Of a DNA stretch of 64,000 nucleotides, positions 28,623 to 51,510 are shown one piece after another. Origin of the DNA: Emticicia sp. C21 (lineage in GTDB: Bacteria; Bacteroidota; Bacteroidia; Cytophagales; Spirosomataceae); contig NZ_QVMT01000014.1 of assembly GCF_003418935.1 (NCBI RefSeq), forward strand, positions 27,143-91,142. Reading direction: 5' to 3'. Numbering within the stretch: position 1 is the stretch's first letter; the number at the start of each line of letters is the position of its first letter. The position numbers and the translations under genes were made by a program. A model generated the notes under the pieces. The model was not told where the DNA came from and ran no database searches. It saw only the letters and a program-made list of their open reading frames with translations.

Positions 28623-28649
28623 CATTTTTAGTCAATGCTGTGATTATAC

Positions 28650-28722: not shown

Positions 28723-28739
28723 CTGAATAGTTTATTTAT

Positions 28740-28813: not shown

Positions 28814-28886
28814 CATCAGGTGCCGTGGATAAGGGTTACTTCGTCTCTAAAACTCTGTTGACTCTTATCGCTTATTGCCCTGAAAT

Positions 28887-28958
28887 GGTCTGATAACTCA
28901 GTGGTAGAGTTGTTTTCTGATACGAAACAGGTCGAAGGTTCGAATCCTTCTCAGACTA
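28887..28958 (+). tRNA. tRNA-Ile (anticodon GAT)
   Basis: Acceptor GGTCTGA/TCAGACT; TA-ACTC-AGTGGTA-GAGT; anticodon arm GTTTT-CTGATAC-GAAAC; T-arm GAAGG-TTCGAAT-CCTTC. Confidence 0.8.
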
Positions 28959-28978
28959 CAATGATTATTTGTTTTTAC

Positions 28979-29051
28979 TACTCTGTAGCTCAGTTGGAAG
29001 AGCGTCATCCTTCTAAGATGAGGGTAATTGGTTCGAATCCAATCAGGGTAA
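28979..29051 (+). tRNA. tRNA-Arg (anticodon TCT)
   Basis: Acceptor TACTCTG/CAGGGTA; TA-GCTC-AGTTGGAA-GAGC; anticodon arm TCATC-CTTCTAA-GATGA; T-arm ATTGG-TTCGAAT-CCAAT. Confidence 0.8.
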
Positions 29052-29187
29052 CATCAAGTGCCGTAGAGAAGAGTTACTTCGTCCGCTAATAGGGGAGGAA
29101 TAGCGAAGTTGTAAAATCAGCAAGACTATCCAGTTCGATTCTGGCTTTGACATGCCCCGTCACTCTTTTCGATTTTTGCCTTGAATT

Positions 29188-29259
29188 GGTTTGATAGCTC
29201 AATGGTAGAGCGGTTCTCTCATAAGGAACAGGCCGATAGTTCGATTCTATCTCAGACTA
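29188..29259 (+). tRNA. tRNA-Met/fMet-type (anticodon CAT)
   Basis: Acceptor GGTTTGA/TCAGACT; TA-GCTC-AATGGTA-GAGC; anticodon arm GTTCT-CTCATAA-GGAAC; T-arm GATAG-TTCGATT-CTATC. Could alternatively be the lysidine-modified Ile2 type. Confidence 0.75.
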
Positions 29260-29333
29260 CAAGTTTGGTGCATCAAATACTTCCTCTCAGAACGGTTCTG
29301 AGATGGCGTTATTCAAACAAAATTTTTTCAACC

Positions 29334-30854: not shown

Positions 30855-30907
30855 TTTAGGGTTAGAATCACTTTCCGGGTCTGGTTTCCGGACCTGGAAA
30901 TTTAAAT

Positions 30908-30979
30908 GGAACATTGGTGAAATGGTTATCATCCTACCCTGTCACGGTAGAATCATGGGTTCGATTCCCATATGTTCCG
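30908..30979 (+). tRNA. tRNA-Asp (anticodon GTC)
   Basis: Acceptor GGAACAT/ATGTTCC; TG-GTGA-AATGGTTA-TCAT; anticodon arm CTACC-CTGTCAC-GGTAG; T-arm ATGGG-TTCGATT-CCCAT; discriminator G. Confidence 0.8.
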
Positions 30980-31112
30980 CGATAGAAACGTAGTTGAACC
31001 TGATGAGGGTTTCATTAAGGCCCCATAGTATTGGAGCAATTGCTTTCAATATGCTGTCAATGAGGGTTCTGTTAATTTATGTAGGTTCGAATCCTGCCAA
31101 GCTAATAAATAT

Positions 31113-31155
31113 GGGCTTGTCGTGTAATGGTTAACACAATGGACTTCCACTCCAT
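31113..31155 (+). pseudogene. 5' fragment of a tRNA-Gly-like (TCC) gene lacking a T-arm
   Basis: GGGCTTG-TC-GTGT-AATGGTTA-ACAC-A-ATGGA-CTTCCAC-TCCAT: acceptor 5' strand, perfect D-arm and anticodon arm. No TTCGA T-arm follows. Confidence 0.4.
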
Positions 31156-31453
31156 AATTTAGAAAACAAGTAAATCAGTCTGAAACTATTCGGGTGTTTT
31201 TACCTTCGCAAAAACACAGTTCAGTACAGACTTGCAAAGAGGAGGATACCGATAGATAGAGGTGATTGCTTCAATGCTGGCGACTACATATATTATAGGG
31301 TGGCTGTCTCGTGGTTACGAGAGACAAACAATTTAGAATTATAGACTAGCCCAAGGCTATTGAACCGATTATCGAAGTCCGTCTTAATCTGATTTCCGTT
31401 TCAATGAATCGGATAGTGTAAGACTGATTTTTAACAAAGTAATTATTAAAATC

Positions 31454-32548
31454 ATGAAAAATATACAAGTAAATGCCAATCAGGTAGCATTGGTTTTGAA
31501 AAATAAGGCTTTCAAGCGATTGCTTGGTGAGGGTTCTTATTGGTTTTGGGGAAATGAAGAAGTTTTTATATATGAGAAAGGAAATGCCTTTGCTGCTCCC
31601 GTTGAACTAAACGTGCTATTGCAACATCCTGAAATCACAGAGGCCTTGGATGTCATAGAGGTAAAAGATAATGAAATGATGGTTCAGTTTGAAGACAATC
31701 GCTTCAAAACTGTCTTTGGTCCGGGTAAATACGCTTTCTGGCGCGGTATTAAAAACTATACTTATACGGCTATTGATTTAAACAAAATCGAGATTACTGA
31801 AGATTTTAGCCCACAGCTAATCAGCACTAAATTATTGTCGTATGTGAGAAGTTATACTGTAGAGTCTTACGAAAAAGGAGTTTTGATTGTTGATGGTAAA
31901 TTTGTACGTGTGTTAGACGGAGGTACTTATTACTGGTGGAAAAATACCATCAGCATTCAGGTAGCTAAAGCGGATATGCGTCAATTGCAAATGGAGATTT
32001 CAGGACAGGAGATTCTGACGAAAGATAAAGCCAGCTTGCGTTTAAATGCCTTTGTGCAATATCGTATCACCGATATTGTGAAAGCGATGTATGAAAACAA
32101 AGACTACGAAAAACAAGTATATGTTGTATTGCAATTGGCTTTAAGAGAGTATATTGGTGGATTAACTTTGGACGAATTGCTGGATAAAAAAGATAGTATT
32201 GTGGATTTTGTATTGAAAAATACTGCCGACAAATTGGTAGGTTTGGGTATTGAAATCAAAGGCTGTGGTATCCGTGATATTATTTTACCCGGAGACATGA
32301 AAGATATCATGAATCAGGTATTGATGGCTGAGAAAAAAGCACAGGCCAATATCATTATGCCTAGGGAAGAAACCGCTTCTATGCGTAGCTTGTTGAACAC
32401 TGCCAAATTGATGGAAGAAAATGAAACCTTGTGGAAATTGAAAGAGATGGAATATGTAGAGAAAATCGCGGATAAAATCAATACTATTTCAGTTTCAGGC
32501 AATGGACAGATTCTCGACCAATTGAAGCAAATTTTTGTAAAAAATTAA
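31454..32548 (+). CDS. SPFH/band-7 domain protein with ~170-aa N-terminal extension
   Basis: The C-terminal half (QEILTKDKASLRLNAFVQYRITD...KGCGIRDIILPGDMKDIMNQVLMAEKKAQANII) is a typical SPFH/band-7 core. Confidence 0.7.
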   Translation: MKNIQVNANQVALVLKNKAFKRLLGEGSYWFWGNEEVFIYEKGNAFAAPVELNVLLQHPEITEALDVIEVKDNEMMVQFEDNRFKTVFGPGKYAFWRGIKNYTYTAIDLNKIEITEDFSPQLISTKLLSYVRSYTVESYEKGVLIVDGKFVRVLDGGTYYWWKNTISIQVAKADMRQLQMEISGQEILTKDKASLRLNAFVQYRITDIVKAMYENKDYEKQVYVVLQLALREYIGGLTLDELLDKKDSIVDFVLKNTADKLVGLGIEIKGCGIRDIILPGDMKDIMNQVLMAEKKAQANIIMPREETASMRSLLNTAKLMEENETLWKLKEMEYVEKIADKINTISVSGNGQILDQLKQIFVKN

Positions 32549-32555
32549 AAATAGG

Positions 32556-32583
32556 GTAGGGGTTGAAAATTTTCAACCCCTAC
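32556..32583 (+). promoter_or_regulatory. perfect 28-nt palindrome between the SPFH gene and rtcB
   Basis: GTAGGGGTTGAAAA|TTTTCAACCCCTAC. Forms a 12-bp stem with a 4-nt loop as RNA. There is no downstream T-tract. Confidence 0.4.
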
Positions 32584-32597
32584 ATAAAATACTTTAA

Positions 32598-34124
32598 ATG
32601 GAAACAACGATTTCATTAGAAGAAATATTAGCATTAGGGAATATACCAGAAAACCTGCAAGGTAGTTTCCTGAGAATAGCTAACGGATTGCATCAAAAGG
32701 CTGAATATCCAAAAGAAAAGGTATTAAGAATGTTTGCTGAAATGTTGGCTAGCCCAAAGAAATTTGCCTATTCAAAAAATAAGGTAACTAACCTGGCAAA
32801 AGAGATTTTTGACCTAGAAAAGAAAGGGATGAAAGTCGAGCTTTCAGAAGAAGGCAAGACTTATTTACCTGCTGAGTCGCCTGTGTATGAGATGGAGGAA
32901 AAAGAAAAGCAAAAAACAGTTGCTTTTGATTTAAGAACATCTCCATTGCCATATCAGATTTACGGCGCTGAATATATCGAAGAGGGCGCATTGAAGCAAA
33001 TGGAAACTGCTTTGAGTTTGCCTGTGGCTGTAGCAGGTGCTTTAATGCCTGATGCCCATCAAGGCTATGGGCTACCTATCGGTGGTGTATTAGCTACGAC
33101 CAATAATACGGTTATTCCGTTTGCGGTCGAAGTAGACATTGCCTGCCGGATGTGTTTGTCAATTTTTGATATTCCAGGTGATTTTTTCAAACGTCAGCCG
33201 CATTTGCTGAAACGTGCTTTAGTAGAGAATACCAAGTTTGGTATGGGTGGAGAAACGGCTCACAAGTTTGATGAAAGTGTCATGGATAAAGCAGAATGGA
33301 CAGCCACAAAAATCATTCGTGATTTGAAAGATAAAGCTTATCGACAATTAGGTACCTCAGGTACTGGAAACCACTTTGTAGAGTGGGGTATTGTAGAGGT
33401 ATTTTCAGCTGATGATTTGCTGGCAGTACCTAAAGGCGAATATCTGGCGCTCCTATCTCATTCGGGTTCAAGAGGTTTTGGTGGGGCAGTAGCTAATCAT
33501 TATTCAAAAGTAGCTATGAAGAAAACCAAATTGCCAAAAGAGGCAGCTCATCTGGCATGGTTGGATATGAATACCGAAGAAGGGCAGGAGTATTGGATTG
33601 CTATGAATCTGGCAGGAGATTATGCTTCGGCCAATCACCACGAAATTCATAAGAAGATTGCTAAAATGTTGGGTGAACAACCTATAAAAATGGTTGAAAA
33701 TCACCACAATTTTGCCTGGAAAGAAAATTTGGCTGATGGTACAGAAGTAATTGTACATAGAAAAGGAGCAACACCTGCCAATCGCAATGACTTAGGGATT
33801 ATTCCTGGCTCTATGACTGACCCAGGCTTTATCGTTCGTGGTAAAGGTATAAGCGAATCATTAAATTCAGCTTCACATGGCGCAGGTCGTTTGATGTCGA
33901 GAACTAAAGCACTTAATTCTATAACTAATAGTGCCTTGAAAAAAGTATTAGAAGAAAAAGGAGTACAACTGATAGGTGGAGATTTAGATGAAGCACCAAT
34001 GGTTTATAAGAATATTGAAACGGTAATTGCTTCGCAAACCGATCTCGTAGAGATTTTGGCTAAGTTTAGCCCAAAGATTGTAAGGATGGCAGATGCCAAT
34101 CGCAAAGAAGGACGAGAGGATTGA
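32598..34124 (+). CDS. rtcB: RNA-splicing ligase RtcB family, with ~100-aa N-terminal extension
   Basis: RtcB hallmarks are present: MPDAHQGYGLPIGGV, DIACRMC, ENHHNFAWKE...VHRKGATPA and SHGAGR. Confidence 0.85.
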   Translation: METTISLEEILALGNIPENLQGSFLRIANGLHQKAEYPKEKVLRMFAEMLASPKKFAYSKNKVTNLAKEIFDLEKKGMKVELSEEGKTYLPAESPVYEMEEKEKQKTVAFDLRTSPLPYQIYGAEYIEEGALKQMETALSLPVAVAGALMPDAHQGYGLPIGGVLATTNNTVIPFAVEVDIACRMCLSIFDIPGDFFKRQPHLLKRALVENTKFGMGGETAHKFDESVMDKAEWTATKIIRDLKDKAYRQLGTSGTGNHFVEWGIVEVFSADDLLAVPKGEYLALLSHSGSRGFGGAVANHYSKVAMKKTKLPKEAAHLAWLDMNTEEGQEYWIAMNLAGDYASANHHEIHKKIAKMLGEQPIKMVENHHNFAWKENLADGTEVIVHRKGATPANRNDLGIIPGSMTDPGFIVRGKGISESLNSASHGAGRLMSRTKALNSITNSALKKVLEEKGVQLIGGDLDEAPMVYKNIETVIASQTDLVEILAKFSPKIVRMADANRKEGRED

Positions 34125-36675: not shown

Positions 36676-38052
36676 ATGGGATATTTTAAAGATATAAGAT
36701 TGGGGATAAAAACAACTGTAAAAGGCATGAGCCTCACGTTGCGACATTTCTGGAATGCACGTGAAAGCAGAAAACCCATTTCGATACAGAGCCCCGATTA
36801 TTTTGAACAGAGTACTGGAATTGTCACGCTTCAGTTTCCGCACGAGTCGATGTTAGTGCCGGATAATGGTCGTTATCAGCTAGATTGTGAGATAGACGAT
36901 TGTATTGTATGTGATAAGTGTGCCAAGATTTGTCCTGTTGATTGCATTGATATTGAGCCGATTAAGTCTTCTGAAATCATCAGTTATGCGTCTGATGGTT
37001 CTCCGATACGTCTATATGCTGCAAAATTTGACATTGACATGGCTAAGTGCTGTTTCTGCGGATTGTGCACAACCGTTTGTCCGACAGAATGCCTGACCAT
37101 GACAAATGAGTATGATTTCAGCGTAGTTGATATTACGCAAATGAATTTTGAGTTTTCGAATTTATCACCTCAACAGGCAGATGAAAAGCGGAAGCTATAT
37201 GAACAGTTTGTGGCAGAAAAAGAAGCAGCAAAAGCCGCTCCAAAGACTCCTGTGGCGCCAAGTACAGAAACTAATGTACCAAAACCTGCATTTAAACCGA
37301 ACTTCAAACCTATAGTAAAACCAACTGTTGCAGAGCCGGAGGAAACAAAAGAAGAAAAAGTAGAGGAAGAAGCTCCAAAGCCTAAGCCTGTTTTTAAACC
37401 TGTGATGAAGACAGTGAAAAAGGAAGAACAGGAAACACCGCAGGTAGAGGAAAAAGCAGCAGATGAGGTGCCAAAAGCACGGCCTGTGTTTAAGCCTGTC
37501 ATGAAAACGGTTCCTAAACCTGTTGAAAATATAGAACAGAAAGAAGCAAAAGAAGAAAAGACAGAGGAGGAAATAAAACCAAAAATATCGTTTAAACCGG
37601 TTTTCAAAACTGCGCCAAAGTCAGTTGAAAATGTAGCATCTAAAGAAGTGCAAGAAGAAAAGATTGAGGAAGAAGTACCTAAGCCAAAGACATCTTTCAA
37701 ACCTGTATTTAAAACGGCACAGAAACCAGTTGAAAATGCGGCACCCGAAGAAGTGAAGGAAGAAAAGATTGAGGAAGAAGCACCAAAGCCAAAGACATCT
37801 TTCAAACCTGTATTTAAAACGGCACCTAAGCCAGTGGAGAATGTAGCGTCTGAAGAAGTGAAAGAAGAGAAGATTGAGGAAGAAGTGCCAAAACCAAAAA
37901 CATCTTTCAAGCCAGTATTCAAAACTGTGCCTAAGCCAGTTGAAAATGTTGCACGAGAAGAAATAAAAGAAGAGAAGATTGAGGAAGTGGCGCCAAAACC
38001 GAAACCGGTTTTCAAGCCAACAATGAAAATTCAACCTAAAAAACCAGAATAG
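36676..38052 (+). CDS. nuoI: NADH-quinone oxidoreductase subunit I with long K/P/E-rich tandem-repeat C-terminal tail
   Basis: Two 4Fe-4S ferredoxin motifs (CIVCDKCAKICP and CCFCGLCTTVCP) sit in the first ~160 aa. They are followed by about six 35-aa repeats of the form KPVFKT.PKPVENVA.EEVKEEKIEEE.PKPKTSF. Confidence 0.8.
   Translation: MGYFKDIRLGIKTTVKGMSLTLRHFWNARESRKPISIQSPDYFEQSTGIVTLQFPHESMLVPDNGRYQLDCEIDDCIVCDKCAKICPVDCIDIEPIKSSEIISYASDGSPIRLYAAKFDIDMAKCCFCGLCTTVCPTECLTMTNEYDFSVVDITQMNFEFSNLSPQQADEKRKLYEQFVAEKEAAKAAPKTPVAPSTETNVPKPAFKPNFKPIVKPTVAEPEETKEEKVEEEAPKPKPVFKPVMKTVKKEEQETPQVEEKAADEVPKARPVFKPVMKTVPKPVENIEQKEAKEEKTEEEIKPKISFKPVFKTAPKSVENVASKEVQEEKIEEEVPKPKTSFKPVFKTAQKPVENAAPEEVKEEKIEEEAPKPKTSFKPVFKTAPKPVENVASEEVKEEKIEEEVPKPKTSFKPVFKTVPKPVENVAREEIKEEKIEEVAPKPKPVFKPTMKIQPKKPE
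37590..37990 (+). repeat. 105-bp tandem DNA repeats (~4-6 copies) encoding the NuoI tail
   Basis: Near-identical units (aagccaaagacatctttcaaacctgtatttaaaacggcac...gaagaagtgaaggaagaaaagattgaggaagaag) are visible directly in the sequence. Confidence 0.75.
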
Positions 38053-39075: not shown

Positions 39076-39149
39076 GGCTGCGTAGCTCAACTGAATAGAG
39101 CGTCTCACTACGGATGAGAAGGTTAGGGGTTTGAATCCCTTCGCGGTCA
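39076..39149 (+). tRNA. tRNA-Arg (anticodon ACG)
   Basis: Acceptor GGCTGCG/CGCGGTC; TA-GCTC-AACTGAATA-GAGC; anticodon arm TCTCA-CTACGGA-TGAGA; T-arm AGGGG-TTTGAAT-CCCTT; discriminator A. Confidence 0.85.
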
Positions 39150-39218
39150 CAAAAAGTTCAAAAACCCTTCAAATAGCGCTATTTGAAGGGTTTTTTGTTT
39201 TATGGTGATACCGTTTTT
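39134..39218 (+). repeat. left copy of an ~85-bp direct repeat (tRNA-Arg 3' end + terminator)
   Basis: About 94% identical to 43142-43226. The left copy is part of the intact tRNA. Confidence 0.7.
39163..39196 (+). terminator. rho-independent terminator after tRNA-Arg
   Basis: Perfect 13-bp palindromic stem CCCTTCAAATAGC/GCTATTTGAAGGG followed by T6. Confidence 0.75.
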
Positions 39219-39389
39219 TACATCTTTTTTATAAGTATTTAATATTACATAGTGCCTGAACATCACCTTTGCCTCATTGCGTATTCCGATGAGTTCTACT
39301 TTGTGCAGTTTTGATAAAGCACAAGACGATGGGGGGAATACCCGGGATATGCAGAGAGTATTACGCAAGTGCTGTGGCGGTTATTTGAA

Positions 39390-41852
39390 TCAATCTACCC
39401 TAAGATTATCCACAGGATTTGTATTGGCCGCCTTCAACGTTTGTGAGAAGATGGTTGTCAGTCCAAGAGCTAACACGACCGCCAGGCTAACGACGATTTC
39501 AAAGGCACCAATAGTTGCATGATAATATTGTGCCTCTTGTAGCATCAACTCCATTAAAAGGTAGACGCCTGGAATGGTGATGATACCCGCGATGCCCAGC
39601 AGCATCATGAAGTCTCTGGATAACAGGTACACCAGGCTTCCGGAAGAGGCACCCATCACTTTCCGGATGCTCACTTCTTTGACCCGGTTTTTGATCGTGA
39701 ACACAACCGTGCCCAATAGTCCCAGGCACGCTATGGTGATGGCTAAGATTCCCATGAATCCCCACAGCTTCATCATTTTGTTATAAGACGAATAGGCATC
39801 GTGGATCTGGTCGGTGAGTAATTCGGCTTTGAACTTCTGGCCTTTCCCGACAGATTTCCAGGCTGCTTCCATTTCCGGAAAAACACGGCTTTGGTTGGTT
39901 GATTGCAACTGAAAATTCGCATAGTTGAAATGCTCAGGTGCATATTCGAAGAAGAAATTTCCAATAGGTGATTGCAGGCTTGCGTAATGAAAATCTTTCA
40001 GAATACCCACCACTGTCACTTTTCTTTTATCGGGCAGGATGACCTCCTGACCAATGGCTCTGGAAGCGTCATCCGGGCTCAGTTTTTTTGCAAACACTTC
40101 ATTGATGATAATCCAACGTGAGTTTTCGCCGGCGTTTTTGACGAAGTTCCTTCCCAACACAAGATGCAGCCCCATATTTGTTATAAAGTTTTCATCAACA
40201 GACATCTTGCTCGCGTCTATAGAATCTGAATCGGCCACCCGCTTTACATACAATCCTGGTACGCTTCCAATGCCAAGCGGGTGCGACGATAGAGAGATCA
40301 TAGAAATGGAGGAAAGCTTTCCAAATTCATTTTTGACCAATTGGGGATCAGCCTGTTGAAGATCAACGTTGAGTATTTTCTCCTGGTCGAATCCGAAATC
40401 ATAATTTACAGAGTACCGATGCTGTTGTGCCATAATAAACACGGCAAAAGTAAAACCAAGAGACAGAATGAACTGGAATGTAATTACCAACTTACGTAAC
40501 GAAAACAGGTGGCCCGTTTTTGTTTGCAGTTCCTTCCCTTTCAGTGCCTGAACTGCACCGGTCTTTGAAAAATGAAGTGCCGGAACAATGCCCGAAACAA
40601 AGCCAACAAAAATGGCGAAAGTTATGAAACCGGCATACGTGCCAAGGGTAGGATTCAGATCGACCCAATCAACGCTGTTGAAAAGCGACAGGGTTTCACC
40701 GCGAATAATCTCAAAGAAAAAATACGACAGTATCACAGCCAGCAGCATAATGATCGTGCTTTCCATCATAAACTGCATAAAGATATGTCTCTTCCGTGCA
40801 CCCATCACCTTTCGCACACCCATCTCTTTCATTCGTTTGAGTGACTGGGAGATAGCCAGGCTAACGTAGTTACTGCATGCTGCGAAGAATATAATGATGG
40901 GTATAACTCCAAAGAGTAGCATTTCCTGGTAGCTCCATTCGTTGCCCATGTCATTGTCGAGCTCAGGCCCGGGAACAATCTTATCTAACCGCTGAAGTTC
41001 GAAAGAAGCCTTGAACTCAGGTTTCGTGTATTTTTCTTTGGCAACGCCATTCAGAAACACTTCAAGAGCAGAGGGACTCAGATTGTCAGAGAGTTGCAGA
41101 TAGGCGTATGAATTGCGGAAGCTATTCCAGTTTTTTTCGTCGTCTGTAAAAGAAGCACCATGATGAGAGATGAGCGTGGCGAATGAGACCAGCGCCTCAA
41201 CCCTTAGGTGCGAGTTCTTAGGCATGTTTTTTGCTACACCTGTCACCATCACTTCACCATATGGCTCTATGGATACAAGTTTGCCCATTGGGTCCTTGTC
41301 GCCAAAAATTCTGGCAGCTGCGGCCTCGGTAATAACCATCGAATTAGGATTGGCAAGCGAAGTGGCAGGGTTGCCCTGCAGCAGTGGAAAGTTAAACATA
41401 GAAAGATACGATGCATCCGCAAAGTATCCGTCTAAAGAAATTTTCATTTCGCCATAACGAACATTACGGGGAAGCGACTGATGAATACGAACAACCTTTT
41501 CTACACCGGCGAAATTGCCTTTCAGCAGTTGAGCGGCACCTATAGGCACGGATGCGAGCGACGGGTCCTCCTGTCGATCCTGCACGTGAGTGATGATCCG
41601 GTAAATGCGCTCTTTATTCGGATGGAAGTTATCGAATTGATACATGAACACGATCATGGCAACGTACAGCAGGTTAAGCGACATGCCCACTGCCAGGCCA
41701 AAGACATTTAAAATGGTGAAGAATCTGTTTTTCGCCAGGTTACGGGTAGCGGTCTTGAAATAATTTTTCAACATGGCGGGTTCCAGGATTTTTCTAAACA
41801 AATCCTGAGTTTGCCCGGTTGAATTTACAGAAGGAGGTAATTGTTTTTTCAT
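39390..41852 (-). CDS. ABC transporter permease, FtsX/MacB-like, two FtsX domains
   Basis: About 820-aa polytopic protein of the Bacteroidetes FtsX-permease family. The track ORF extends to 41936, but the MKKQLPP start at ~41852 is more plausible. Confidence 0.75.
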   Translation of the reverse strand: MKKQLPPSVNSTGQTQDLFRKILEPAMLKNYFKTATRNLAKNRFFTILNVFGLAVGMSLNLLYVAMIVFMYQFDNFHPNKERIYRIITHVQDRQEDPSLASVPIGAAQLLKGNFAGVEKVVRIHQSLPRNVRYGEMKISLDGYFADASYLSMFNFPLLQGNPATSLANPNSMVITEAAAARIFGDKDPMGKLVSIEPYGEVMVTGVAKNMPKNSHLRVEALVSFATLISHHGASFTDDEKNWNSFRNSYAYLQLSDNLSPSALEVFLNGVAKEKYTKPEFKASFELQRLDKIVPGPELDNDMGNEWSYQEMLLFGVIPIIIFFAACSNYVSLAISQSLKRMKEMGVRKVMGARKRHIFMQFMMESTIIMLLAVILSYFFFEIIRGETLSLFNSVDWVDLNPTLGTYAGFITFAIFVGFVSGIVPALHFSKTGAVQALKGKELQTKTGHLFSLRKLVITFQFILSLGFTFAVFIMAQQHRYSVNYDFGFDQEKILNVDLQQADPQLVKNEFGKLSSISMISLSSHPLGIGSVPGLYVKRVADSDSIDASKMSVDENFITNMGLHLVLGRNFVKNAGENSRWIIINEVFAKKLSPDDASRAIGQEVILPDKRKVTVVGILKDFHYASLQSPIGNFFFEYAPEHFNYANFQLQSTNQSRVFPEMEAAWKSVGKGQKFKAELLTDQIHDAYSSYNKMMKLWGFMGILAITIACLGLLGTVVFTIKNRVKEVSIRKVMGASSGSLVYLLSRDFMMLLGIAGIITIPGVYLLMELMLQEAQYYHATIGAFEIVVSLAVVLALGLTTIFSQTLKAANTNPVDNLRVD

Positions 41853-41959
41853 AACTTTATTTTTTAATAAAGGCTTTATATTATATGATGCTGAAAAAAT
41901 GTATTTGGTTACAGCTAAGCACGTTTTGATGAACAAGATTAAATTTATATCTGATGAGA

Positions 41960-42765
41960 TTTATGTGAGGTTATATTTCTAAATGTATGATGTTTTATAA
42001 TTTCTATAGTGCATAGTTAATTTAATAGCTTGCCAATGATTGAATACCTTCTTTGAAAAGCTTGTTGTCCTTCTTTTTAACCTCTTGCAACTGTTTCTTA
42101 ATGAGGTGTTTACACCCTCAATTGTTCTGGTGAATTTCTTGCCAATTAGATGTTTATCATAAGGTAAAACTTGTTTAAAGGCTTCCCATCTATCGGTACA
42201 GAACCAGTCAATTGTAAGCCCTTGAAGACGTTTAAAAAGGTCTTTTACTTGCCTTTTGCTGCGTTTACCTGCTGTAACCGCAATAATCTCATTAGTTTCA
42301 ACAGCGTAGGCGTAAATAATCCAGACCTTTTTCCCTTTCTTACTTACGAAACTATGTAGTTCATCTATCTGCACTTTGTGATAATGCTTTTTACTTGGTT
42401 TCAGGGTAATAGACAATCCTATTTTTAGCATTGTTCTGATAACACACCCTTTGCTAATACCTAATACATTCGCAATATCTGTAATTCCACTTCCATGAAC
42501 TAACATCCTGATAATCTGACGCTTAACTCTAATATTGGCTCCCCAGTACAGATATTCATATTGGAATTGTTTCTTACAATCTGAACATTTGTAATTCTGA
42601 ACCTTGTTCTTTTTTAAGCCATTCTTTACTACTTTTGCACTGAAACAATGGGGGCAATCTAACTTTATTATTATTTGAGACATAATCGTAAAGTTCGCTC
42701 CCTTGTTTTATCTTTTCAAATTATCATACATTTTATCTACAACCTATGTGATTGCCTATAATCAA
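41960..42765 (-). mobile_element. IS1-family insertion sequence (~0.8 kb)
   Basis: Contains the fused InsAB-type transposase ORF. Imperfect terminal inverted repeats share the core AAATGTATGAT at ~41966-41976 and ~42741-42751 (complement). Confidence 0.7.
41979..42683 (-). CDS. IS1 family transposase (fused InsA-InsB)
   Basis: InsA zinc finger CPHCFSAKVVKNG...YKCSDCKKQF; HTH GISKGCVIRTMLK; InsB-like block KKVWIIYAYAVETNEIIAVTAGKRSKRQVKDLFKRLQ. Confidence 0.85.
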   Translation of the reverse strand: MSQIIIKLDCPHCFSAKVVKNGLKKNKVQNYKCSDCKKQFQYEYLYWGANIRVKRQIIRMLVHGSGITDIANVLGISKGCVIRTMLKIGLSITLKPSKKHYHKVQIDELHSFVSKKGKKVWIIYAYAVETNEIIAVTAGKRSKRQVKDLFKRLQGLTIDWFCTDRWEAFKQVLPYDKHLIGKKFTRTIEGVNTSLRNSCKRLKRRTTSFSKKVFNHWQAIKLTMHYRNYKTSYI

Positions 42766-43141
42766 GGAAACTACCCATACCCAAGCCTCTATTTATTAAA
42801 TAAAAAACAAAGTGAGATCTGTTACAATTCTCATGTTTAGTCCAGATATTAGCACAAAATAAAAGCCCTCATAAAATAAGGGAATTCATTACTAAATGAG
42901 GATTCTAATAACTTTAATAAAATTAATAATTTCAATTATCAATTAAAAAAAGCACCCTTATTCTGTATGGAAATAACTGCGTATAGTTGATAGGGTCTAT
43001 GGCACCTGATTATTTACTAAAATAAATCTAGCAGAAGAATAGATAATTATCTAAATGTGCTTATTATTATCGATAATCAAGGTATTATAATACTATGAAT
43101 CCTTATTCAAAAACATTAGGATTCGTTACGAATCCGGCATA

Positions 43142-43226
43142 AATCCCTTCGCGGTCACAAAAAGTTTAAAAACCCTTCAAATAGCGCAGTTTGAAGGGTT
43201 TTTTGTTTTATAGTGCTACCTTTTTT
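43142..43226 (+). repeat. right copy of the ~85-bp direct repeat (orphan tRNA-Arg 3' fragment + terminator)
   Basis: aatcccttcgcggtcacaaaaagtttaaaaacccttcaaatagcgcagtttgaagggttttttgttttat matches 39134-39218 with about 5 mismatches. Confidence 0.7.
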
Positions 43227-43659
43227 GCCACCTTTCTCTGGGTGAAAAATATCAGGAATCGCACTAAATACCTTGCCACACAAATCACTTACGATTTGCA
43301 GCACAATACGGCTCAAGCGAAAAAGCTAGGGGCTAAGCATAAATTTTAGTGAGTCCAAAATAGTAAAATCTAAAACCACCTTATCAAAGCCATTCAGGAA
43401 TATAACGCTATAAATGGCGTTACTGCAGATATTACTTCATTTGAATAACCTAATGATTTATCACCAGGCGTGCAAGAAAAGCTAAATAATTTATTTTAAA
43501 AGTTTCCACACTTTGGTTAATTAATTTAGCTTTAAAGCGTTCATTCTATACAGAAGAATCGGAATTCAGTAAAAACTTCTATTAGCAACTGGCTATATAC
43601 TGGATTATTTTTTTTTAATTGTATTGACCTGACAAAAAAGCATTTTTAAAATTACTTCT

Positions 43660-44316
43660 ATGAAAAGAATATTTTTTTTTATTTTGTTACTACTCCATCT
43701 GTGTATAAGCTGTGGTGATAAAAGTAAAACTAAAGAATTGAAAAATTCAGTTTTAAGCCTTTTGAAAACAGATGAGTATTACTACCATTCAGATAGCTTA
43801 GTAAAAGCTAAATCAAAAGAAGCACTCAACTATTGCAAAGCCAGAAACTGGAATACAGAGGTTTGCTTTATGCTGGATATGAGTATTCACTCTGGTAAAA
43901 AGAGATTCTTTATCTGGGATTTAAAAAATAATAAAACCCTTGATTCGGGGTTGGTTGCCCATGGTTGTGGAAAGAAAAACTGGGGAAAAGATGATACCAA
44001 AGAGGCCGCAGTGTTTAGTAATATCCCCGAAAGCTATTGTTCCTCTCTTGGAAAATACAAAATTGGAAATAGAGGAGTAAGTACATGGGGGATTAAAGTA
44101 AATTACCTAATGCATGGAATGGAGCAAACCAATAATAATGCTTTAAAAAGACAAATCGTTTTACATTCCTGGAATGCTGTTCCCGATAATGAAACATATC
44201 CAGATGGAGTTCCAGAAGGTTGGGGATGTCCGGCGGTGAGTAATAACTTTATGAGGAAATTGGATAGGGTTATAATCCAATCAAAAAAGCCCATATTACT
44301 ATGGACTTTCAAGTGA
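43660..44316 (+). CDS. lipoprotein, possible L,D-transpeptidase-like catalytic domain
   Basis: Signal peptide plus lipobox (LLLHLCISCG). The C-terminal segment HSWN...GWGCPAVS is loosely reminiscent of the YkuD His/Cys catalytic pair. Weak call. Confidence 0.35.
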   Translation: MKRIFFFILLLLHLCISCGDKSKTKELKNSVLSLLKTDEYYYHSDSLVKAKSKEALNYCKARNWNTEVCFMLDMSIHSGKKRFFIWDLKNNKTLDSGLVAHGCGKKNWGKDDTKEAAVFSNIPESYCSSLGKYKIGNRGVSTWGIKVNYLMHGMEQTNNNALKRQIVLHSWNAVPDNETYPDGVPEGWGCPAVSNNFMRKLDRVIIQSKKPILLWTFK

Positions 44317-44550
44317 GTTTTTATAACATAACTTTATAATCTCTCTTTTTCAATATCATTCTCAGGCACTGCTATTTTCTCTTTATAGTGAGTACATTTA
44401 TTAGGACACGAAGATTTTTTATAATGCTTTCCAGTCCGAGAACTAGTAAATGTTATTTAATCTACTAACGACTATAACAAAACATATATGACCTTAAAAA
44501 TAACCCTCACAAGAGTAAGGATATTTTAGCAATACTGCATTGTAAAACTA

Positions 44551-45126
44551 TTAAACGAAATCCCCCATCAATCTAACACCTCTACTAAACTTCTCCCGAA
44601 ACACTCCCTGCTGTCCGCTCCCCGGATACGGTATTCGTTCATGATAAGCATTGTACCCATTTGCTACTAACGGAGCATAGCAAATATCATAGACATTTGC
44701 CTTGATTAAAATAATCGGGATGCTCTTGTCAATTTGATTTTTCAGGCGTTCGAGAAGAGAAGGTAGAAAGTTTTCGAGAGGTTCTTCAACAAGACTGCAA
44801 GGCACTTCGGATAAACTGATAAACCAATATCCATCTTCCTGAAATCTTTCCAGAAGTTCTTCTTTCAGAGAAGTAGCACGACGAGAGGCTAGATATTCCT
44901 TTTTTTGTTCAGGATACAAAACTCCCATGACTTCTAAAAAAAGCGAATCATGTTTCTTTACATCGGCAAAATAAAAATATCTATCAAGATTATCCGGCGG
45001 GCCTTCACCAATAAAAACCATTTTTATATTCCTGGGCTTAAATTGGTTTCTTGCTTTGGCATAACGGGCTTTGATAAACTCAATATCTAAACGAGAATGT
45101 TCCATACACGAGATTTTATTAAACAA
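44551..45126 (-). CDS. hypothetical protein
   Basis: 191-aa ORF with no recognised motif. Confidence 0.4.
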   Translation of the reverse strand: MFNKISCMEHSRLDIEFIKARYAKARNQFKPRNIKMVFIGEGPPDNLDRYFYFADVKKHDSLFLEVMGVLYPEQKKEYLASRRATSLKEELLERFQEDGYWFISLSEVPCSLVEEPLENFLPSLLERLKNQIDKSIPIILIKANVYDICYAPLVANGYNAYHERIPYPGSGQQGVFREKFSRGVRLMGDFV

Positions 45127-45192
45127 AACTCATTCATACGGGCAAAAGTTGCAGATATGAATGAGTAAGTTCCTGAATTCTCAGATGAAATA

Positions 45193-47325
45193 TCAACCGC
45201 ACCCTTTAATCTCTATTTTAAAAGTACTTCCGGTATTGGCATTAAATGGAGGATTCAATACGACGTTTTTTCCTGCATTATAGGTAGTATTAACTCCGTT
45301 TGGAATGACTTGTGTAGAAGTTATAGTTTTATTAGCAGTTCTTACGCCAGCCGTTGCAGTTCCGCTCAATGTTAAATTCTCTGGTGCACCCGATACACCA
45401 CTTGTAATGGTTAAGACATTACTATTTGGGCTTATGCAACCATTAACCGTACACTTGGCCGCATAAGTACCAGTTGTATTCACCGAAATACTACTTCCAC
45501 TTAGCCCATTCGACCAGGTGACTGTTCCGCCGCATCCTGTGGCAGTCAATGTAACACTTTGCCCATTGCAGATAGCTGTACCCGATGCAGAGGCAGTAGG
45601 CGCAGTAGGAGATGGGCCGATAGTAACTGTTGTTGCTTTGCGCGAACTTTCACAACTGACCGTACAACTCACATAATACGTGGTATTGCTATTCAATACA
45701 GGCGTAGTATAACTGGCAGTTGAGGCAAGAATGGTAGTAGAAGTATTAGAACTATACCATTTATAGGTACCAGCGCAGCCTGTCGCAGTTAAAGTGGCTG
45801 TTTTACCCGCGCAAATCGTTTGTCCTGTTGAATTGGGCTGATTGGGTGCAGCAATTATGTTAACAGTGATTGATTTTTTAGCGCTTTCACAGTTACCATT
45901 TTTACAATTGACGTAATAAGTAGTCTGGCTATTTAAAGCAGGGGTTGTGTAAGAAGAAGAATAGGCAATGGGTGTATTAGAAGTATTAGAGGTAAACCAT
46001 TGATAATTTAAACTACAGCCACTTGCAGTTAAAGTAACACTTTTACCTGCACAGGCAGAGGCATTTGGAGAAACCTGAACATCAACAGTTGTAACTGTGA
46101 TAGCAATTGTATTACTAGTATTTGAGCATTCACCTTGCGAGCAGGTGGCAGTATAGCTGGTAGTTGTGGTTGGATATACTGTGATGGAGGCCCCTTGCGC
46201 TCCCGTAGACCACTTGACAGTTCCCCATGAACAATTGCTGGCACTAAGTGTTACACTCTGGCCTGAACAAATAGTAGTATTTGATGGACCGGAAATTGTT
46301 ATAGCAGGAAGTGTAGGATAGCCGCTTATTTTTTTTATCTCGTTTGCATAAAAAGTATTGCCGCCAAATGAGCTACAAATGCTACCAGTCTGGCCTACAT
46401 TGACCCAACCCTCAGGGAAAGAATTGTCACCACATATGGTGATAATGGAATTTACGGGCATACAGGTGACTTTTTTTATGTGTCGGGCAATATAGGCACT
46501 ATTAGGTCCGCAATTACCACCGATAGTTAAAGTAACCCATCCGGCAGGTGGAAGATCACCGCAGATGTCTAATTCGGTATCTGAGGGTAAACCATCAGCT
46601 TTTATGATATGTCTTGCTATATAAGTACTATTAAAGCCACAATTACCATTGATGCTTTTAGTAAGCCATCCGGCCGGAGGATGCGCATTTTCATCACAGA
46701 TATCTAACTCGGTTCCTGCAGCCATGCCCTCAATTTTTAAGATTCTTCTGGAGATATAATTACTACTCGGGCCGCAATAGCCTGAAACACTCTTGGTAAC
46801 CCATCCGGCAGGCGGAAGGTCTCCACAAATATCCAGCTCAGTTCCTGTAGATAGTCCGCCCACTCTTTTAATGTTTCTGCTCTCATAATTAAATCCATCT
46901 AATGAGTAGCAATTGCCATTAAAGCCTACGGTAACCCATCCTTCGGGTGCCGCAGGGTCACCACAAATAGTCAGGTCATTTTCTGTGGTTAATCCCTCTA
47001 CTTTTTTAATAGTTCTGCCGACGAATTTCGTCCCATTAATTTCAGAGGCACAATAACCATTAATACTTATCGTAACCCATCCGGCAGGCGTTGGGTCACC
47101 ACAGATACCCATTTGGTGTCCCGGCGACTTACTGCCGAGATATTCGATTGTTCGACTGATATCAGTGCCACCACAAGTGCCATTGACTGAAATGGTTACC
47201 CATCCATCCGGAACAGAGCCACCGCATATGGTTTGTGTTTGTGACTGGCCATCAAACGAAATAGCCATGAATAAGAAGGTGAAAAGAGAGAGAAACAGAA
47301 CTTGCGTAGTTTTCATATCATGCAA
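45193..47325 (-). CDS. secreted cysteine-rich multi-repeat protein
   Basis: Signal peptide, then seven ~36-aa repeats of the form [ED]LDICGD.PPAGWVT.S..G.CG, then several ~75-aa TLTA.GC..Y.W repeats (Ig-like). No T9SS CTD. Confidence 0.6.
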   Translation of the reverse strand: MHDMKTTQVLFLSLFTFLFMAISFDGQSQTQTICGGSVPDGWVTISVNGTCGGTDISRTIEYLGSKSPGHQMGICGDPTPAGWVTISINGYCASEINGTKFVGRTIKKVEGLTTENDLTICGDPAAPEGWVTVGFNGNCYSLDGFNYESRNIKRVGGLSTGTELDICGDLPPAGWVTKSVSGYCGPSSNYISRRILKIEGMAAGTELDICDENAHPPAGWLTKSINGNCGFNSTYIARHIIKADGLPSDTELDICGDLPPAGWVTLTIGGNCGPNSAYIARHIKKVTCMPVNSIITICGDNSFPEGWVNVGQTGSICSSFGGNTFYANEIKKISGYPTLPAITISGPSNTTICSGQSVTLSASNCSWGTVKWSTGAQGASITVYPTTTTSYTATCSQGECSNTSNTIAITVTTVDVQVSPNASACAGKSVTLTASGCSLNYQWFTSNTSNTPIAYSSSYTTPALNSQTTYYVNCKNGNCESAKKSITVNIIAAPNQPNSTGQTICAGKTATLTATGCAGTYKWYSSNTSTTILASTASYTTPVLNSNTTYYVSCTVSCESSRKATTVTIGPSPTAPTASASGTAICNGQSVTLTATGCGGTVTWSNGLSGSSISVNTTGTYAAKCTVNGCISPNSNVLTITSGVSGAPENLTLSGTATAGVRTANKTITSTQVIPNGVNTTYNAGKNVVLNPPFNANTGSTFKIEIKGCG

Positions 47326-50049: not shown

Positions 50050-50424
50050 TCATGGTTCAAAGATTAGTCTTTCATCTTTTTCAACTACCGGAATTTCTTT
50101 TACGAAATCATCATAGCCCTCTTCGTTTTCGTGGGTACTATAAGCACCATAGGCATCTATGGTATAACCTATCTGACCGTTGTTAGACTCAATGATATAC
50201 AGAATAGCTGATTCTGATGGACTAGACTCACCCTCAAAACGATAAGTTTTGATGATTTTAAGGTCTTCTGGTGCAAAATACTCTTCAGCATCAGCGAGAT
50301 GAAAACCTTTATCAGTCCAACGGAATTCTTTATCAACTCCTTTTTTTCTTAGTTTCTCCAGGATGGTGACCATGGTGGTCATCTCAGTACTTTTGTCGGA
50401 ATATTCTTTTTTCGGTGTTTCCAT
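50050..50424 (-). CDS. hypothetical protein
   Basis: 124-aa acidic ORF with no motif. Confidence 0.4.
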   Translation of the reverse strand: METPKKEYSDKSTEMTTMVTILEKLRKKGVDKEFRWTDKGFHLADAEEYFAPEDLKIIKTYRFEGESSPSESAILYIIESNNGQIGYTIDAYGAYSTHENEEGYDDFVKEIPVVEKDERLIFEP

Positions 50425-50622
50425 AGCTTTAACGTTTAATACTTTATCATATACAATTATTATTCCCTATACGGACGCTTAAAAAATGGCTTTATACGCA
50501 CTCAAATTGTGAGATAAAATACACATCCAGCCTTGAAATGTAGAAAATTTTGCCAAACCGAACCAAATAGTTTTTGGAAGTGTATTTTATTCAGACAGGT
50601 ATCTGTCTATCGAACATTTTGA

Positions 50623-51510
50623 TTGGATTCATTCATGCGTCTCACTTATCTGAAACTGGTTGCTACGGTATTTTTCTGGGGTTCTAATTTTGCAGCCGGA
50701 AAAATAGCTGTACAATCATTCGGGCCATATTCCACCGCCTTTCTTCGATTTACTGTTGGGGCATCCTTATTGATGCTCATGCTCTATAAACAAGAAGGAA
50801 AACTACCAAAAACCAACGCAACCCAATGGAAGTGGGCGGCTATATCTGGTATACTGGGTGTTGTGTTATATAATATCAGTTTTTTTATCGGTATTCAATA
50901 TATGCCTACGGTCAGGGCTTCACTCATTGTTGCCTTTTCGCCCATTACGATTACTTTAGGAAGCGCGATTTTCTTTGGCGAAAAAGTAACGCTGCTCAAA
51001 TGGCTGGGCATTCTTATATCCATTGCAGGGGCAATGTTAGTAATTGTCAGAGGCGATTTCGGTAATCTATTAGCGCAAAGCACCTGGGGAGTAGGAGAGT
51101 GGTTTATTCTGGGAGCAGTTATGGCATGGACTGCATATACCTTAACTGCCAAATCGGCTTTAAAAGCAATGCCCGCCTTGACATTAAGTGCTTTCTCGGC
51201 TTTTATTGGTTGTCTATTGTTATTTGTTCCCGCCTGGCAGCATGGTCTTTTCGAGCGTATGGCTTCTGCACCATGGTCTTCTTATGTAGCCGTTATTTAT
51301 ATGGGAGCAGCTGCGACTGCACTCGGTTTCATCTGGTATTATGATGCCGTTCGACTGATTGGAGTTACCAAATCGGCTATTATTGGGAACCTTACCCCTG
51401 TTTTTGCCGTGCTGATTGCCATAAGCTTTTTGGGAGAAAAGCTCACTATCCCTACTATTATTGGCGGAATTCTGGTACTTTTGGGTATATTGCTTACAAG
51501 CCGGAAATAA
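50623..51510 (+). CDS. DMT (EamA-like) family transporter
   Basis: 295 aa with about 10 TM helices and two EamA-like halves. Confidence 0.8.
   Translation: MDSFMRLTYLKLVATVFFWGSNFAAGKIAVQSFGPYSTAFLRFTVGASLLMLMLYKQEGKLPKTNATQWKWAAISGILGVVLYNISFFIGIQYMPTVRASLIVAFSPITITLGSAIFFGEKVTLLKWLGILISIAGAMLVIVRGDFGNLLAQSTWGVGEWFILGAVMAWTAYTLTAKSALKAMPALTLSAFSAFIGCLLLFVPAWQHGLFERMASAPWSSYVAVIYMGAAATALGFIWYYDAVRLIGVTKSAIIGNLTPVFAVLIAISFLGEKLTIPTIIGGILVLLGILLTSRK

What the first reader, a model, noticed from the sequence alone, without database searches (positions are those of the whole stretch)
39134..43226. ~4-kb insertion downstream of tRNA-Arg(ACG), bounded by an 85-bp duplication of the tRNA 3' end + terminator
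The sequence from the T-loop of tRNA-Arg through its palindromic terminator (39134-39218) is repeated at 43142-43226 with about 5 mismatches. The two copies bracket an FtsX/MacB-type permease gene, an IS1-family element and ~0.9 kb of non-coding DNA. This is the signature of a tRNA-targeted integrative element, but no integrase is present, so it is either a decayed island or an IS-mediated rearrangement. The nuoIJK genes end abruptly at this junction, and nuoL-N are not nearby.
Basis: seen in the sequence. Interest (0 to 1): 0.55.

Follow-up and report, generated by a model that had tools for sequence, protein, structure and literature searches.

The report
Decayed tRNA-Arg genomic islet carrying a permease
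A small piece of horizontally acquired DNA (a transporter gene, later hit by an insertion sequence) sits behind a tRNA-Arg gene between two copies of the tRNA's tail. This is the ordinary scar of a mobile element that integrated into the tRNA and then lost its own integrase.

Summary
A 94-nt direct repeat (39134-39227 / 43142-43235, 90% identical) starts in the T-loop of tRNA-Arg(ACG) and runs through its terminator. It brackets an intact duplicated FtsX/MacB permease gene and a 776-bp IS1-family element.

The window is from an Emticicia species. The two closest "empty" relatives (L048, L033) go straight from tRNA-Arg and terminator to the gene at 44551. The whole 39.2-44.55 kb segment is therefore an insertion, and repeat copy 2 lies inside it.

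At least eight other cargo states occupy this site in relatives. They include a prophage with a tyrosine integrase.

The permease is foreign: dS to E. agri is 0.27 against about 1.0 for flanking core genes. E. agri carries the same permease at the same site, with a decayed distal terminator copy. It also has the same unique motif (AAGGTATTAT-N7-TGAA) at the right junction.

A phage contig (L035) has the same tRNA fragment, also starting in the T-loop, next to its integrase.

The IS1 is a late simple insertion, with a 7-bp target duplication and an IS-free allele in L028. It did not cause the repeat.

The nuoIJK/tRNA-Arg adjacency is ancestral.

Verdict: an integrase-less, CIME-like relic at a tRNA integration hot spot. 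It is ordinary, a new member of a known kind.

The parts
39076..39150 (+). tRNA-Arg(ACG), intact. This is the integration target (attL side). The T-loop is 39130-39136.
   Evidence: ARAGORN; Rfam RF00005 at 58 bits; identical or near-identical in relatives.
39134..39227 (+). Repeat copy 1: the tRNA 3' end from the T-loop, the bidirectional terminator hairpin (39160-39195) and about 26 nt of downstream spacer.
   Evidence: The terminator is conserved after tRNA-Arg in L001, L003, L004, L033, L048 and L051.
39241..39389 (-). 3' trailer of the permease gene. It travels with the gene in unrelated genomic contexts.
   Evidence: 86% nucleotide identity to L030/L031 across win 39241-41869.
39390..41852 (-). 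Cargo: an intact 820-aa duplicated MacB_PCD/FtsX-type ABC permease. It is horizontally acquired and no partner ATPase lies nearby.
   Evidence: Pfam and NCBIfam. Homologues are 80-85% identical across genera and one is on a Fibrella plasmid. dS is 0.27 to E. agri against 0.74-1.8 for flanking genes. GC is 0.43-0.45 against 0.32-0.35 for neighbouring DNA.
41962..42751 (-). IS1-family insertion sequence (41969-42744, 776 bp; transposase ORF 41979-42683), flanked by the 7-bp target duplication TATGTGA (41962-41968 and 42745-42751). It is a late, simple insertion.
   Evidence: NF033558, PF03400 and PF03811. The inverted repeats, the target duplication and the IS-free allele in L028 were read.
42752..43078 (.). 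AT-rich non-coding right-hand part of the permease module. No homologue was found.
   Evidence: No blastn match in any fetched locus beyond 42776. No Rfam hit.
43079..43102 (+). Right-junction motif AAGGTATTAT-N7-TGAATCC. It is the element-side arm abutting a T-loop-like TGAATCC.
   Evidence: Unique in the window. The only other occurrence in 53 loci is L001 13915-13935, directly upstream of E. agri's distal terminator copy.
43103..43146 (.). A 44-nt stretch containing the palindrome GGATTCGTTACGAATCC (43119-43135), bounded by AATCC on both sides. Removing it would give AAGGTATTATAATACTA|TGAATCCCTTCGCGGTCAC, so it is possibly a small later insertion into attR. This is inference.
   Evidence: Sequence read; hairpin listed.
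43142..43235 (+). Repeat copy 2: the displaced tRNA 3' fragment, terminator (43168-43203) and spacer. It is the attR-like junction.
   Evidence: The sequence upstream of it is not tRNA.
43236..44550 (+). Older distal module: non-coding 43236-43590, the YkuD_2 L,D-transpeptidase-domain gene at 43660-44316, and a spacer with a hairpin at 44503-44522. It is absent from the empty-site relatives.
   Evidence: PF13645. The only close homologue (94%) is in L032, where homology is limited to 43591-44385 and the neighbourhood is phage-like. L048 and L033 lack the module.
44551..45126 (-). Conserved right flank: a 191-aa gene of unknown function that directly follows the tRNA-Arg terminator in the empty-site alleles.
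   Evidence: L048 1400-2604 matches win 44576-45772. L033 2696-2774 matches win 44587-44665. L001 and L004 also carry it.

Best explanation
The segment is the relic of a small integrative element that entered the T-loop of tRNA-Arg(ACG) by site-specific recombination, catalysed by a phage-type tyrosine integrase supplied in trans or since lost. Integration rebuilt the tRNA from the element's own copy of the 3' end plus terminator (copy 1, attL). It pushed the resident 3' end, terminator and downstream DNA about 4 kb away (copy 2, attR). The cargo is an orphan duplicated FtsX/MacB-type permease gene that circulates horizontally among Cytophagia. The element landed in front of an older insert, the YkuD_2 module, so the locus is a tandem accretion at a genus-wide integration hot spot. 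Afterwards an IS1-family element inserted, 86 nt of the permease leader was lost, and possibly 44 nt were added in attR. What is shown: the repeat, its T-loop boundary, the empty sites, the foreign origin of the permease, the independence of the IS, and the shared junction motif with E. agri. What is inferred: that an integrase made the crossover, the order of accretion, and any present-day mobility.
For: (1) The repeat begins in the T-loop and includes the whole 3' tRNA part. The T-loop is a documented integrase crossover sublocation (bioRxiv 10.1101/2020.11.02.365908; PMC1762012). (2) The IMG/VR contig L035 carries tgAATCCCTTCGCGGTCACA outside any tRNA. It lies about 105 nt upstream of a complete tyrosine integrase with Arm-DNA-bind_5, Phage_int_SAM_5 and Phage_integrase domains. 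This is an attP-like site with the same boundary. (3) In relatives the position right after tRNA-Arg holds a prophage with an integrase and tape-measure gene (L007) and an Arm-domain ORF (L005). (4) Empty sites exist. L048 is the closest relative (core dS about 0.6) and L033 is a second one. Both join the terminator to the 191-aa gene. (5) At least eight other cargo states occupy the same site. (6) The permease has dS 0.27 to E. agri against 0.74-1.8 for flanking genes. It is 85-86% identical at nucleotide level to copies in unrelated contexts, and its GC is raised. (7) E. agri has the same permease at the same site. It carries a decayed second terminator copy 31 nt from the 191-aa gene (22/26, 0/300 shuffles). 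It also has the motif AAGGTATTAT-N7-TGAA at the right junction, which is otherwise unique. (8) The IS1 has its own target duplication and an IS-free allele.
Against: No integrase lies in the element or the window, and no intact parent element was found (viral scans were negative). The repeat runs 77 nt past the tRNA end into a terminator that is native to the genus. That is longer than a normal att core, and it would also allow RecA-dependent recombination. Copies 1 and 2 are more alike (48/51 and 20/26) than either is to any relative. This fits a within-lineage duplication or gene conversion as well as it fits a donor/recipient pair. No allele with tRNA-Arg joined directly to the 43.2-kb flank was found. 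No third repeat is detectable at the distal end of the YkuD_2 module. The shared junction motif is short and was noticed post hoc; a general local alignment of the two regions is not significant.
Confidence: 0.62

Rival explanations
1. Campbell-type insertion by ordinary homologous recombination. A circular or transformed DNA from another Emticicia carried the tRNA 3' end, terminator and permease. It recombined with the chromosomal copy through the 94-nt homology, without any site-specific integrase.
For: The repeat is long (94 nt) and includes a terminator native to the genus. The permease is shared with E. agri at low dS, so inter-species DNA exchange happened. No integrase is present.
Against: The left edge of the homology falls exactly in the T-loop, as in the phage attP-like site of L035. 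The same non-tRNA junction motif precedes the distal copy in two species. A 94-nt stretch at 90% identity is a poor RecA substrate (established knowledge).
Confidence: 0.17
2. Copy 2 is the stump of a second, tandemly duplicated tRNA-Arg gene whose 5' part was deleted, with the permease and other DNA later inserted between the two genes.
For: Copy 2 keeps its own terminator and spacer. The two copies are closer to each other than to those of any other genome.
Against: All Emticicia-clade relatives examined have a single tRNA-Arg at this locus. The deletion end-point would have to fall in the 7-nt T-loop by chance. E. agri shows the same bracketing of the same permease.
Confidence: 0.08
3. IS1-mediated rearrangement (cointegrate resolution, adjacent duplication or a composite transposon) created the duplication.
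For: An IS1-family element lies between the repeats.
Against: The window holds a single IS copy. It has intact inverted repeats, a 7-bp direct target duplication and an uninterrupted allele in L028. The IS ends are 2.7 kb from one repeat copy and 0.4 kb from the other. E. agri has the bracketed permease without any IS.
Confidence: 0.02

Closest known systems
tRNA-targeted genomic islands and prophages integrated by tyrosine integrases at the T-loop sublocation (for example mycobacteriophage Ms6 in tRNA-Ala; Klebsiella tDNA islands)
   Same: Direct repeats made of the tRNA 3' part starting in the T-loop, an intact tRNA at the proximal end, foreign cargo, empty-site alleles in relatives, and a hot spot with many alternative occupants (PMC1762012; bioRxiv 10.1101/2020.11.02.365908).
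   Different: There is no integrase, excisionase or transfer gene. The unit is only about 4 kb with a single cargo gene. The repeat extends 77 nt beyond the tRNA into the terminator.
CIMEs (cis-mobilizable elements) and tandem accretion of islands, as described for ICESt1/ICESt3-related elements in Streptococcus and for pathogenicity islands in Streptomyces (reviewed in PMC5704250)
   Same: [quoted passage not shown] It lies in tandem with another decayed insert at the 3' end of the target gene, with the newest layer next to the target.
   Different: Derivation from an ICE or IME is not shown and mobilisation was not tested. The host is a member of the Cytophagia (Bacteroidota), and the candidate helpers seen at this site are phage-like rather than conjugative.
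IS1 family insertion sequences
   Same: A zinc-ribbon InsA-like N-terminus plus the DDE_Tnp_IS1 domain, a 776-bp length, roughly 23-bp terminal inverted repeats starting GGT, and a short target duplication.
   Different: It has one continuous 234-aa ORF rather than the insA/insB' frameshift arrangement of E. coli IS1 (own knowledge). The target duplication is 7 bp rather than the usual 8-9 bp.
MacB/FtsX-type duplicated ABC permeases (ADOP / DarB-like architecture)
   Same: Two MacB_PCD + FtsX repeats in about 800 aa.
   Different: Scores are below the NCBIfam ADOP and DarB cut-offs. No adjacent ABC ATPase or adaptor gene is present, so the substrate is unknown.

Membership tests
tRNA-targeted site-specific integrative element (genomic island) | Flanked by direct repeats that contain the 3' part of the target tRNA, with the tRNA reconstituted at one end | tested here: met
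   39134-39227 / 43142-43235, 90% over 94 nt. The first 25 nt, which include the 17 tRNA nt, are identical.
tRNA-targeted site-specific integrative element (genomic island) | Repeat boundary at a recognised crossover sublocation (anticodon loop, T-loop or 3' end) | tested here: met
   The boundary falls at T-loop position 5. The attP-like fragment next to the integrase in L035 has the same boundary. Literature.
tRNA-targeted site-specific integrative element (genomic island) | Encodes its own integrase next to an att site | tested here: not met
   The only ORFs with family hits between the repeats are the permease and the IS1 transposase.
tRNA-targeted site-specific integrative element (genomic island) | Empty-site allele in related genomes | tested here: met
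   L048 and L033 run tRNA-Arg, terminator, then the 191-aa gene. This holds for the whole 39.2-44.55 kb segment. An allele lacking only 39.2-43.1 kb was not found.
tRNA-targeted site-specific integrative element (genomic island) | Cargo of foreign origin | tested here: met
   dS 0.27 against about 1.0. 85-86% nucleotide identity in unrelated contexts and a plasmid-borne homologue. GC 0.43-0.45.
tRNA-targeted site-specific integrative element (genomic island) | Excision to a circular form with attP and a restored attB | not testable with these tools
   Needs PCR or long reads from the source strain.
CIME (cis-mobilizable element) | Retains attL and attR but has no integration or transfer genes | tested here: met
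   Definition from PMC5704250.
CIME (cis-mobilizable element) | Derived by decay from an ICE or IME, and mobilisable by a helper with the same att specificity | tested here: inconclusive
   The same element ends appear in two species, and integrase-bearing elements sit at this tRNA in L007, L005 and L035. No parent element was found and there was no functional test.
IS1 family insertion sequence | DDE_Tnp_IS1 transposase with an InsA-type zinc ribbon | tested here: met
   PF03400 at 1.3e-23, PF03811, and NF033558 at 193.5 bits against a cut-off of 100.
IS1 family insertion sequence | Terminal inverted repeats and a direct target duplication | tested here: met
   Inverted repeats GGTTATATTTCTAAATGTATGAT / GGTTGTAGATAAAATGTATGAT. 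Target duplication TATGTGA. IS-free allele in L028.
Composite transposon / IS-mediated duplication | Two IS copies, or an IS end at the duplication junction | tested here: not met
   There is one IS copy, and its ends are 0.4 kb and 2.7 kb from the repeat copies.
MacB/FtsX-type ABC exporter | MacB_PCD and FtsX domains | tested here: met
   PF12704 and PF02687, two stretches each.
MacB/FtsX-type ABC exporter | Cognate ABC ATPase encoded alongside | tested here: not met
   No ABC_tran hit among the large ORFs of the window.

The most novel reading that the evidence does not exclude
The permease unit is still a functional integrase-less hitch-hiker. It would be a roughly 4-kb att-flanked cassette that tRNA-Arg-specific phage integrases excise and re-insert in trans. 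That would make the tRNA-Arg locus of Emticicia a cassette-exchange platform where single cargo genes (permease, YkuD_2, SIR2-like, QueC-like sets) are stacked and swapped between species. Such CIME-type mobilisation by temperate phages has not, to my knowledge, been described in Bacteroidota.
Probability: 0.2. Interest if true: 0.45.

Novelty: new member of a known kind. Interest (0 to 1): 0.22.

Why it matters
The finding mainly serves annotation and genome-plasticity bookkeeping. It marks tRNA-Arg(ACG) downstream of nuoIJK as the integration hot spot of the genus Emticicia. It shows that a widely shared orphan FtsX/MacB permease moves horizontally. It also gives a clean example of layered accretion and decay, with an att scar, a late IS hit and small indels. 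It does not open a new mechanism. If the cassette proved mobilisable in trans, it would extend the CIME concept to Cytophagia and to phage helpers.

Tried and rejected
- Exact-protein look-ups of window genes (nuoJ, nuoK, YkuD_2, IS1 transposase) found nothing, so the source genome is not in that collection.
- The right-junction 19-mer is absent from IMG/VR. The permease and YkuD_2 are also absent from IMG/VR, so no intact parent element was recovered.
- A search for a third repeat copy at the distal end of the island gave nothing by blastn-short. Smith-Waterman with shuffles was not significant: 76/300, 229/300, 301/1000 and 266/1000.
- The hairpin at 44503-44522 lies where a decayed native terminator would be, but homology could not be shown.
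- A second hit in E. agri (L001 19114-19164) resembles the terminator. It follows a protein-coding gene and has no window counterpart, so I treated it as an unrelated or very old terminator.
- General alignment of the E. agri and window right-junction regions is not significant. Only the exact motif and its position are informative.
- The global test of a tRNA-fragment remnant in E. agri's distal copy was uninformative.
- The acceptor stems of tRNAs next to integrases (L007, L005) are fully compensated, so they give no evidence of a recent junction.
- The conserved permease leader has no Rfam match.
- The IS-mediated model was rejected on the target duplication and the empty site.
- The idea that the insertion broke the nuo operon was rejected on conservation in relatives.


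Full report
OBSERVATION. ARAGORN and Rfam place an intact tRNA-Arg(ACG) at 39076-39150 on the plus strand. The repeat finder reports a direct repeat at 39134-39227 / 43142-43235, 94 nt and 90% identical. The tRNA-derived 18-mer and the palindromic terminator each occur exactly twice in the window, with none expected in shuffles. Reading the cloverleaf from the sequence, the T-loop TTTGAAT is 39130-39136, so the repeat starts inside the T-loop. The sequence upstream of copy 2 shows no similarity to the rest of the tRNA.

Between the copies lie three things. The first is an intact 820-aa duplicated MacB_PCD/FtsX permease at 39390-41852, minus strand. The longer ORF call in the listing is an upstream TTG artefact, since homologues are 820 aa. 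The second is an IS1-family transposase ORF. The third is non-coding DNA.

SOURCE AND RELATIVES. A nuoJ-based scan of genome representatives shows the window is from an Emticicia species (Spirosomataceae). The best matches are E. agri (L001), Emticicia sp. BO119 (L003) and E. soli (L004) at 92-93% NuoJ identity. Further relatives came from a metagenome pattern scan (L033) and from protein look-ups (L028, L032, L048, L051-L053). nuoI-J-K followed by tRNA-Arg(ACG) is conserved in all Emticicia-clade loci. A stand-alone nuoIJK cluster is also seen in Siphonobacter. The abrupt end of the nuo genes is therefore ancestral and unrelated to the insertion.

EMPTY SITES AND THE TRUE EXTENT OF THE INSERT. 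L048 is the closest relative found, with nuoJ, nuoK and the 191-aa gene at dS about 0.6. It runs from tRNA-Arg and its terminator, after about 40 nt, straight into the homologue of the 191-aa gene at window 44551-45126, and then into the 710-aa gene. L033 shows the same join. Relative to these, the window carries about 5.3 kb of extra DNA (about 39228-44550), and repeat copy 2 lies inside it.

The extra DNA has two parts: the permease module (to about 43141) and a distal module with a YkuD_2 L,D-transpeptidase-domain gene (43236-44550). The YkuD_2 gene has a single close homologue (94%), on L032. There the homology is confined to 43591-44385, and the neighbouring genes are a phage-like repressor, primase and helicase set. 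So the YkuD_2 gene is also a separately travelling piece.

A GENUS-WIDE HOT SPOT. The position just after the tRNA-Arg terminator holds different DNA in almost every relative.
- E. agri has the permease only.
- BO119 has an epimerase.
- E. soli has a QueC-like gene, a deoxyribosyltransferase/PfkB fusion and a small ORF.
- E. fluvialis has a SIR2-like gene.
- L051/L053 have a 128-aa membrane protein and a DUF4238 protein.
- L007 has a prophage with a Phage_int_SAM_5 integrase-like gene and a tape-measure gene.
- Emticicia sp. 17c has an Arm-DNA-bind_5 ORF at a contig end.
The conserved right anchor across the genus is the 124-aa gene plus the EamA transporter (window 50050-51510). The permease unit is therefore the newest, tRNA-proximal layer of a roughly 10.8-kb variable region.

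THE CARGO IS FOREIGN. Nei-Gojobori dS between the window and E. agri is 0.27 for the permease. For the genes on either side it is 0.74-1.8: nuoJ 0.98, nuoK 0.97, the 544-aa flavoprotein 1.0, the 191-aa gene 1.75. The closest relative, at core dS 0.6, lacks the gene altogether. Homologues 80-85% identical occur in Dyadobacter, Catalinimonas and Nibrella, and one at 77% lies on a Fibrella plasmid. Copies 85-86% identical at the nucleotide level sit in unrelated neighbourhoods without any tRNA (L029, L030/L031). GC content is 0.43-0.45 across the gene against 0.32-0.35 on either side. No ABC ATPase is encoded in the window.

THE IS1 ELEMENT IS A BYSTANDER. Aligning the window with L028 fixes the IS at 41969-42744 (776 bp). 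L028 is a Logan contig whose permease is 95% identical. The IS has imperfect terminal inverted repeats beginning GGTT and a 7-bp direct duplication, TATGTGA. L028 reads straight through the uninterrupted target. This is a simple, late transposition, and it rules out an IS-mediated origin of the 94-nt repeat. The same alignment shows the window has lost 86 nt of a roughly 110-nt leader. That leader is conserved upstream of the permease in L001, L028, L029 and L030.

WHY AN INTEGRASE-TYPE EVENT IS THE BEST EXPLANATION. First, the repeat's left edge is in the T-loop, one of the recognised crossover sublocations for tRNA-targeting tyrosine integrases.

Second, an IMG/VR contig (L035) carries tgAATCCCTTCGCGGTCACA outside any tRNA gene. 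It begins at the same place in the T-loop and lies about 105 nt upstream of a complete tyrosine integrase with Arm-DNA-bind_5, Phage_int_SAM_5 and Phage_integrase domains. Integrases with exactly this target and boundary therefore exist.

Third, integrase-bearing elements occupy the same tRNA in relatives.

Fourth, E. agri has the same permease in the same place and orientation. Between it and the 191-aa gene there is a decayed second copy of the terminator (L001 13961-13987; 22/26 to its own proximal copy; 0 of 300 shuffles reach the score).

Fifth, directly upstream of that distal copy, E. agri has AAGGTATTAT-N7-TGAA. The only other occurrence of this pattern in the window and in 53 loci is at window 43079-43099, just upstream of copy 2. 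Two species thus share the element-side arm of the right junction, abutting a T-loop-like TGAA.

In the window this TGAATCC (43096-43102) is separated from the rest of the tRNA fragment by 44 nt. Those 44 nt contain a 17-nt palindrome and are bounded by AATCC on each side. Removing them would give a seamless junction, so I read them as a later small insertion. That reading is inference only.

WHY THE REPEAT IS SO LONG. The terminator and about 26 nt of spacer are native to the tRNA-Arg locus of the clade. They are present in L001, L003, L004, L033, L048 and L051. The element's tRNA-proximal arm must therefore itself have come from an Emticicia tRNA-Arg locus. The most economical origin is excision from an earlier host between the tRNA T-loop and a distal site, carrying the downstream DNA with it. 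This step is inferred. It also means homologous recombination over the 94 nt cannot be excluded as the means of insertion. That is the main rival, at about 0.17. A truncated tandem tRNA duplicate (about 0.08) is disfavoured because the locus is single-copy in all relatives and because of the T-loop boundary.

COMPARISON WITH KNOWN SYSTEMS. The anatomy matches a tRNA-integrated genomic islet that has lost its recombination module. This is what the ICE/IME literature calls a CIME, lying in tandem with an older decayed insert (accretion; PMC5704250). Membership of "integrative element" fails on the integrase criterion. Membership of "CIME" is met on structure, but derivation and mobilisation are untested. 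The IS is a bona fide IS1-family member.

VERDICT. The finding is real, correctly spotted and largely correctly interpreted. It is ordinary: a decayed, integrase-less islet at a tRNA integration hot spot, with a later IS insertion. I rate it a new member of a known kind, interest about 0.2.

Noticed in passing
window 22663-34124: An array of 13 tRNA genes (25926-30980) is interleaved with RNA-repair-type genes. The array includes a second, different tRNA-Arg(ACG) at 26506-26577, and several members have low Rfam scores. The interleaved genes are PcfJ-like, an RNA ligase with a PHA02142 OB fold, endonuclease V-like, a Ro60/TROVE+vWA (Rsr-like) protein, Band 7 and RtcB. Relatives L001 and L003 have differing arrays with unusually long 'tRNAs' of 89-91 nt. 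It looks like an Rsr/RtcB RNA-repair island with a tRNA array, and some 'tRNAs' might be Y-RNA-like. It may be more interesting than the assigned finding.
   Followed up: no
window 36676-38052: NuoI is 458 aa instead of about 180. It has a Lys/Pro/Glu-rich tandem-repeat C-terminal extension, with repeats of the KPxFKPVxKT type. The extension is present, with variable length, in relatives and in Siphonobacter (576 aa). nuoIJK forms a stand-alone cluster, and no other nuo genes are in the window.
   Followed up: partly
L001 13679-13790; L028 158-242; L029/L030 about 7880-8000 (upstream of the permease start): A roughly 110-nt non-coding leader is conserved upstream of the permease gene across unrelated genomic contexts. 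The window has lost 86 nt of it. It has no Rfam match. It is possibly a promoter/operator or a regulatory RNA.
   Followed up: partly
window 43103-43146: A 44-nt stretch with a perfect 7-bp-stem palindrome (GGATTCGTTACGAATCC) and three GAATCC/GGATTC motifs. It is bounded by AATCC on both sides and sits inside the attR-like junction. Its origin is unexplained: a mini-insertion, or recombinase-binding sites.
   Followed up: partly
L004 11135-13256; L006 11374-12546: Cargo at the same tRNA-Arg site in other species looks defence-like. One is a QueC-like gene with a nucleoside 2-deoxyribosyltransferase/PfkB fusion and a 104-aa ORF. Another is a SIR2_2-like protein.
   Followed up: no
L032 4590-4660: In the relative carrying the 94%-identical YkuD_2 gene, a phage-like module (repressor, primase, AAA_25 helicase) ends about 400 nt upstream. 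At that end there is a GGTGGGCCCACCA motif followed by a terminator hairpin. This resembles the 3' end of another tRNA and may be an att site.
   Followed up: no
L028 2776-2987: In this close relative the permease unit has a different left neighbour: a protein-coding gene followed by another hairpin. Homology to the window starts in the loop of the tRNA-Arg terminator. This is a third rearrangement breakpoint within about 100 nt.
   Followed up: partly
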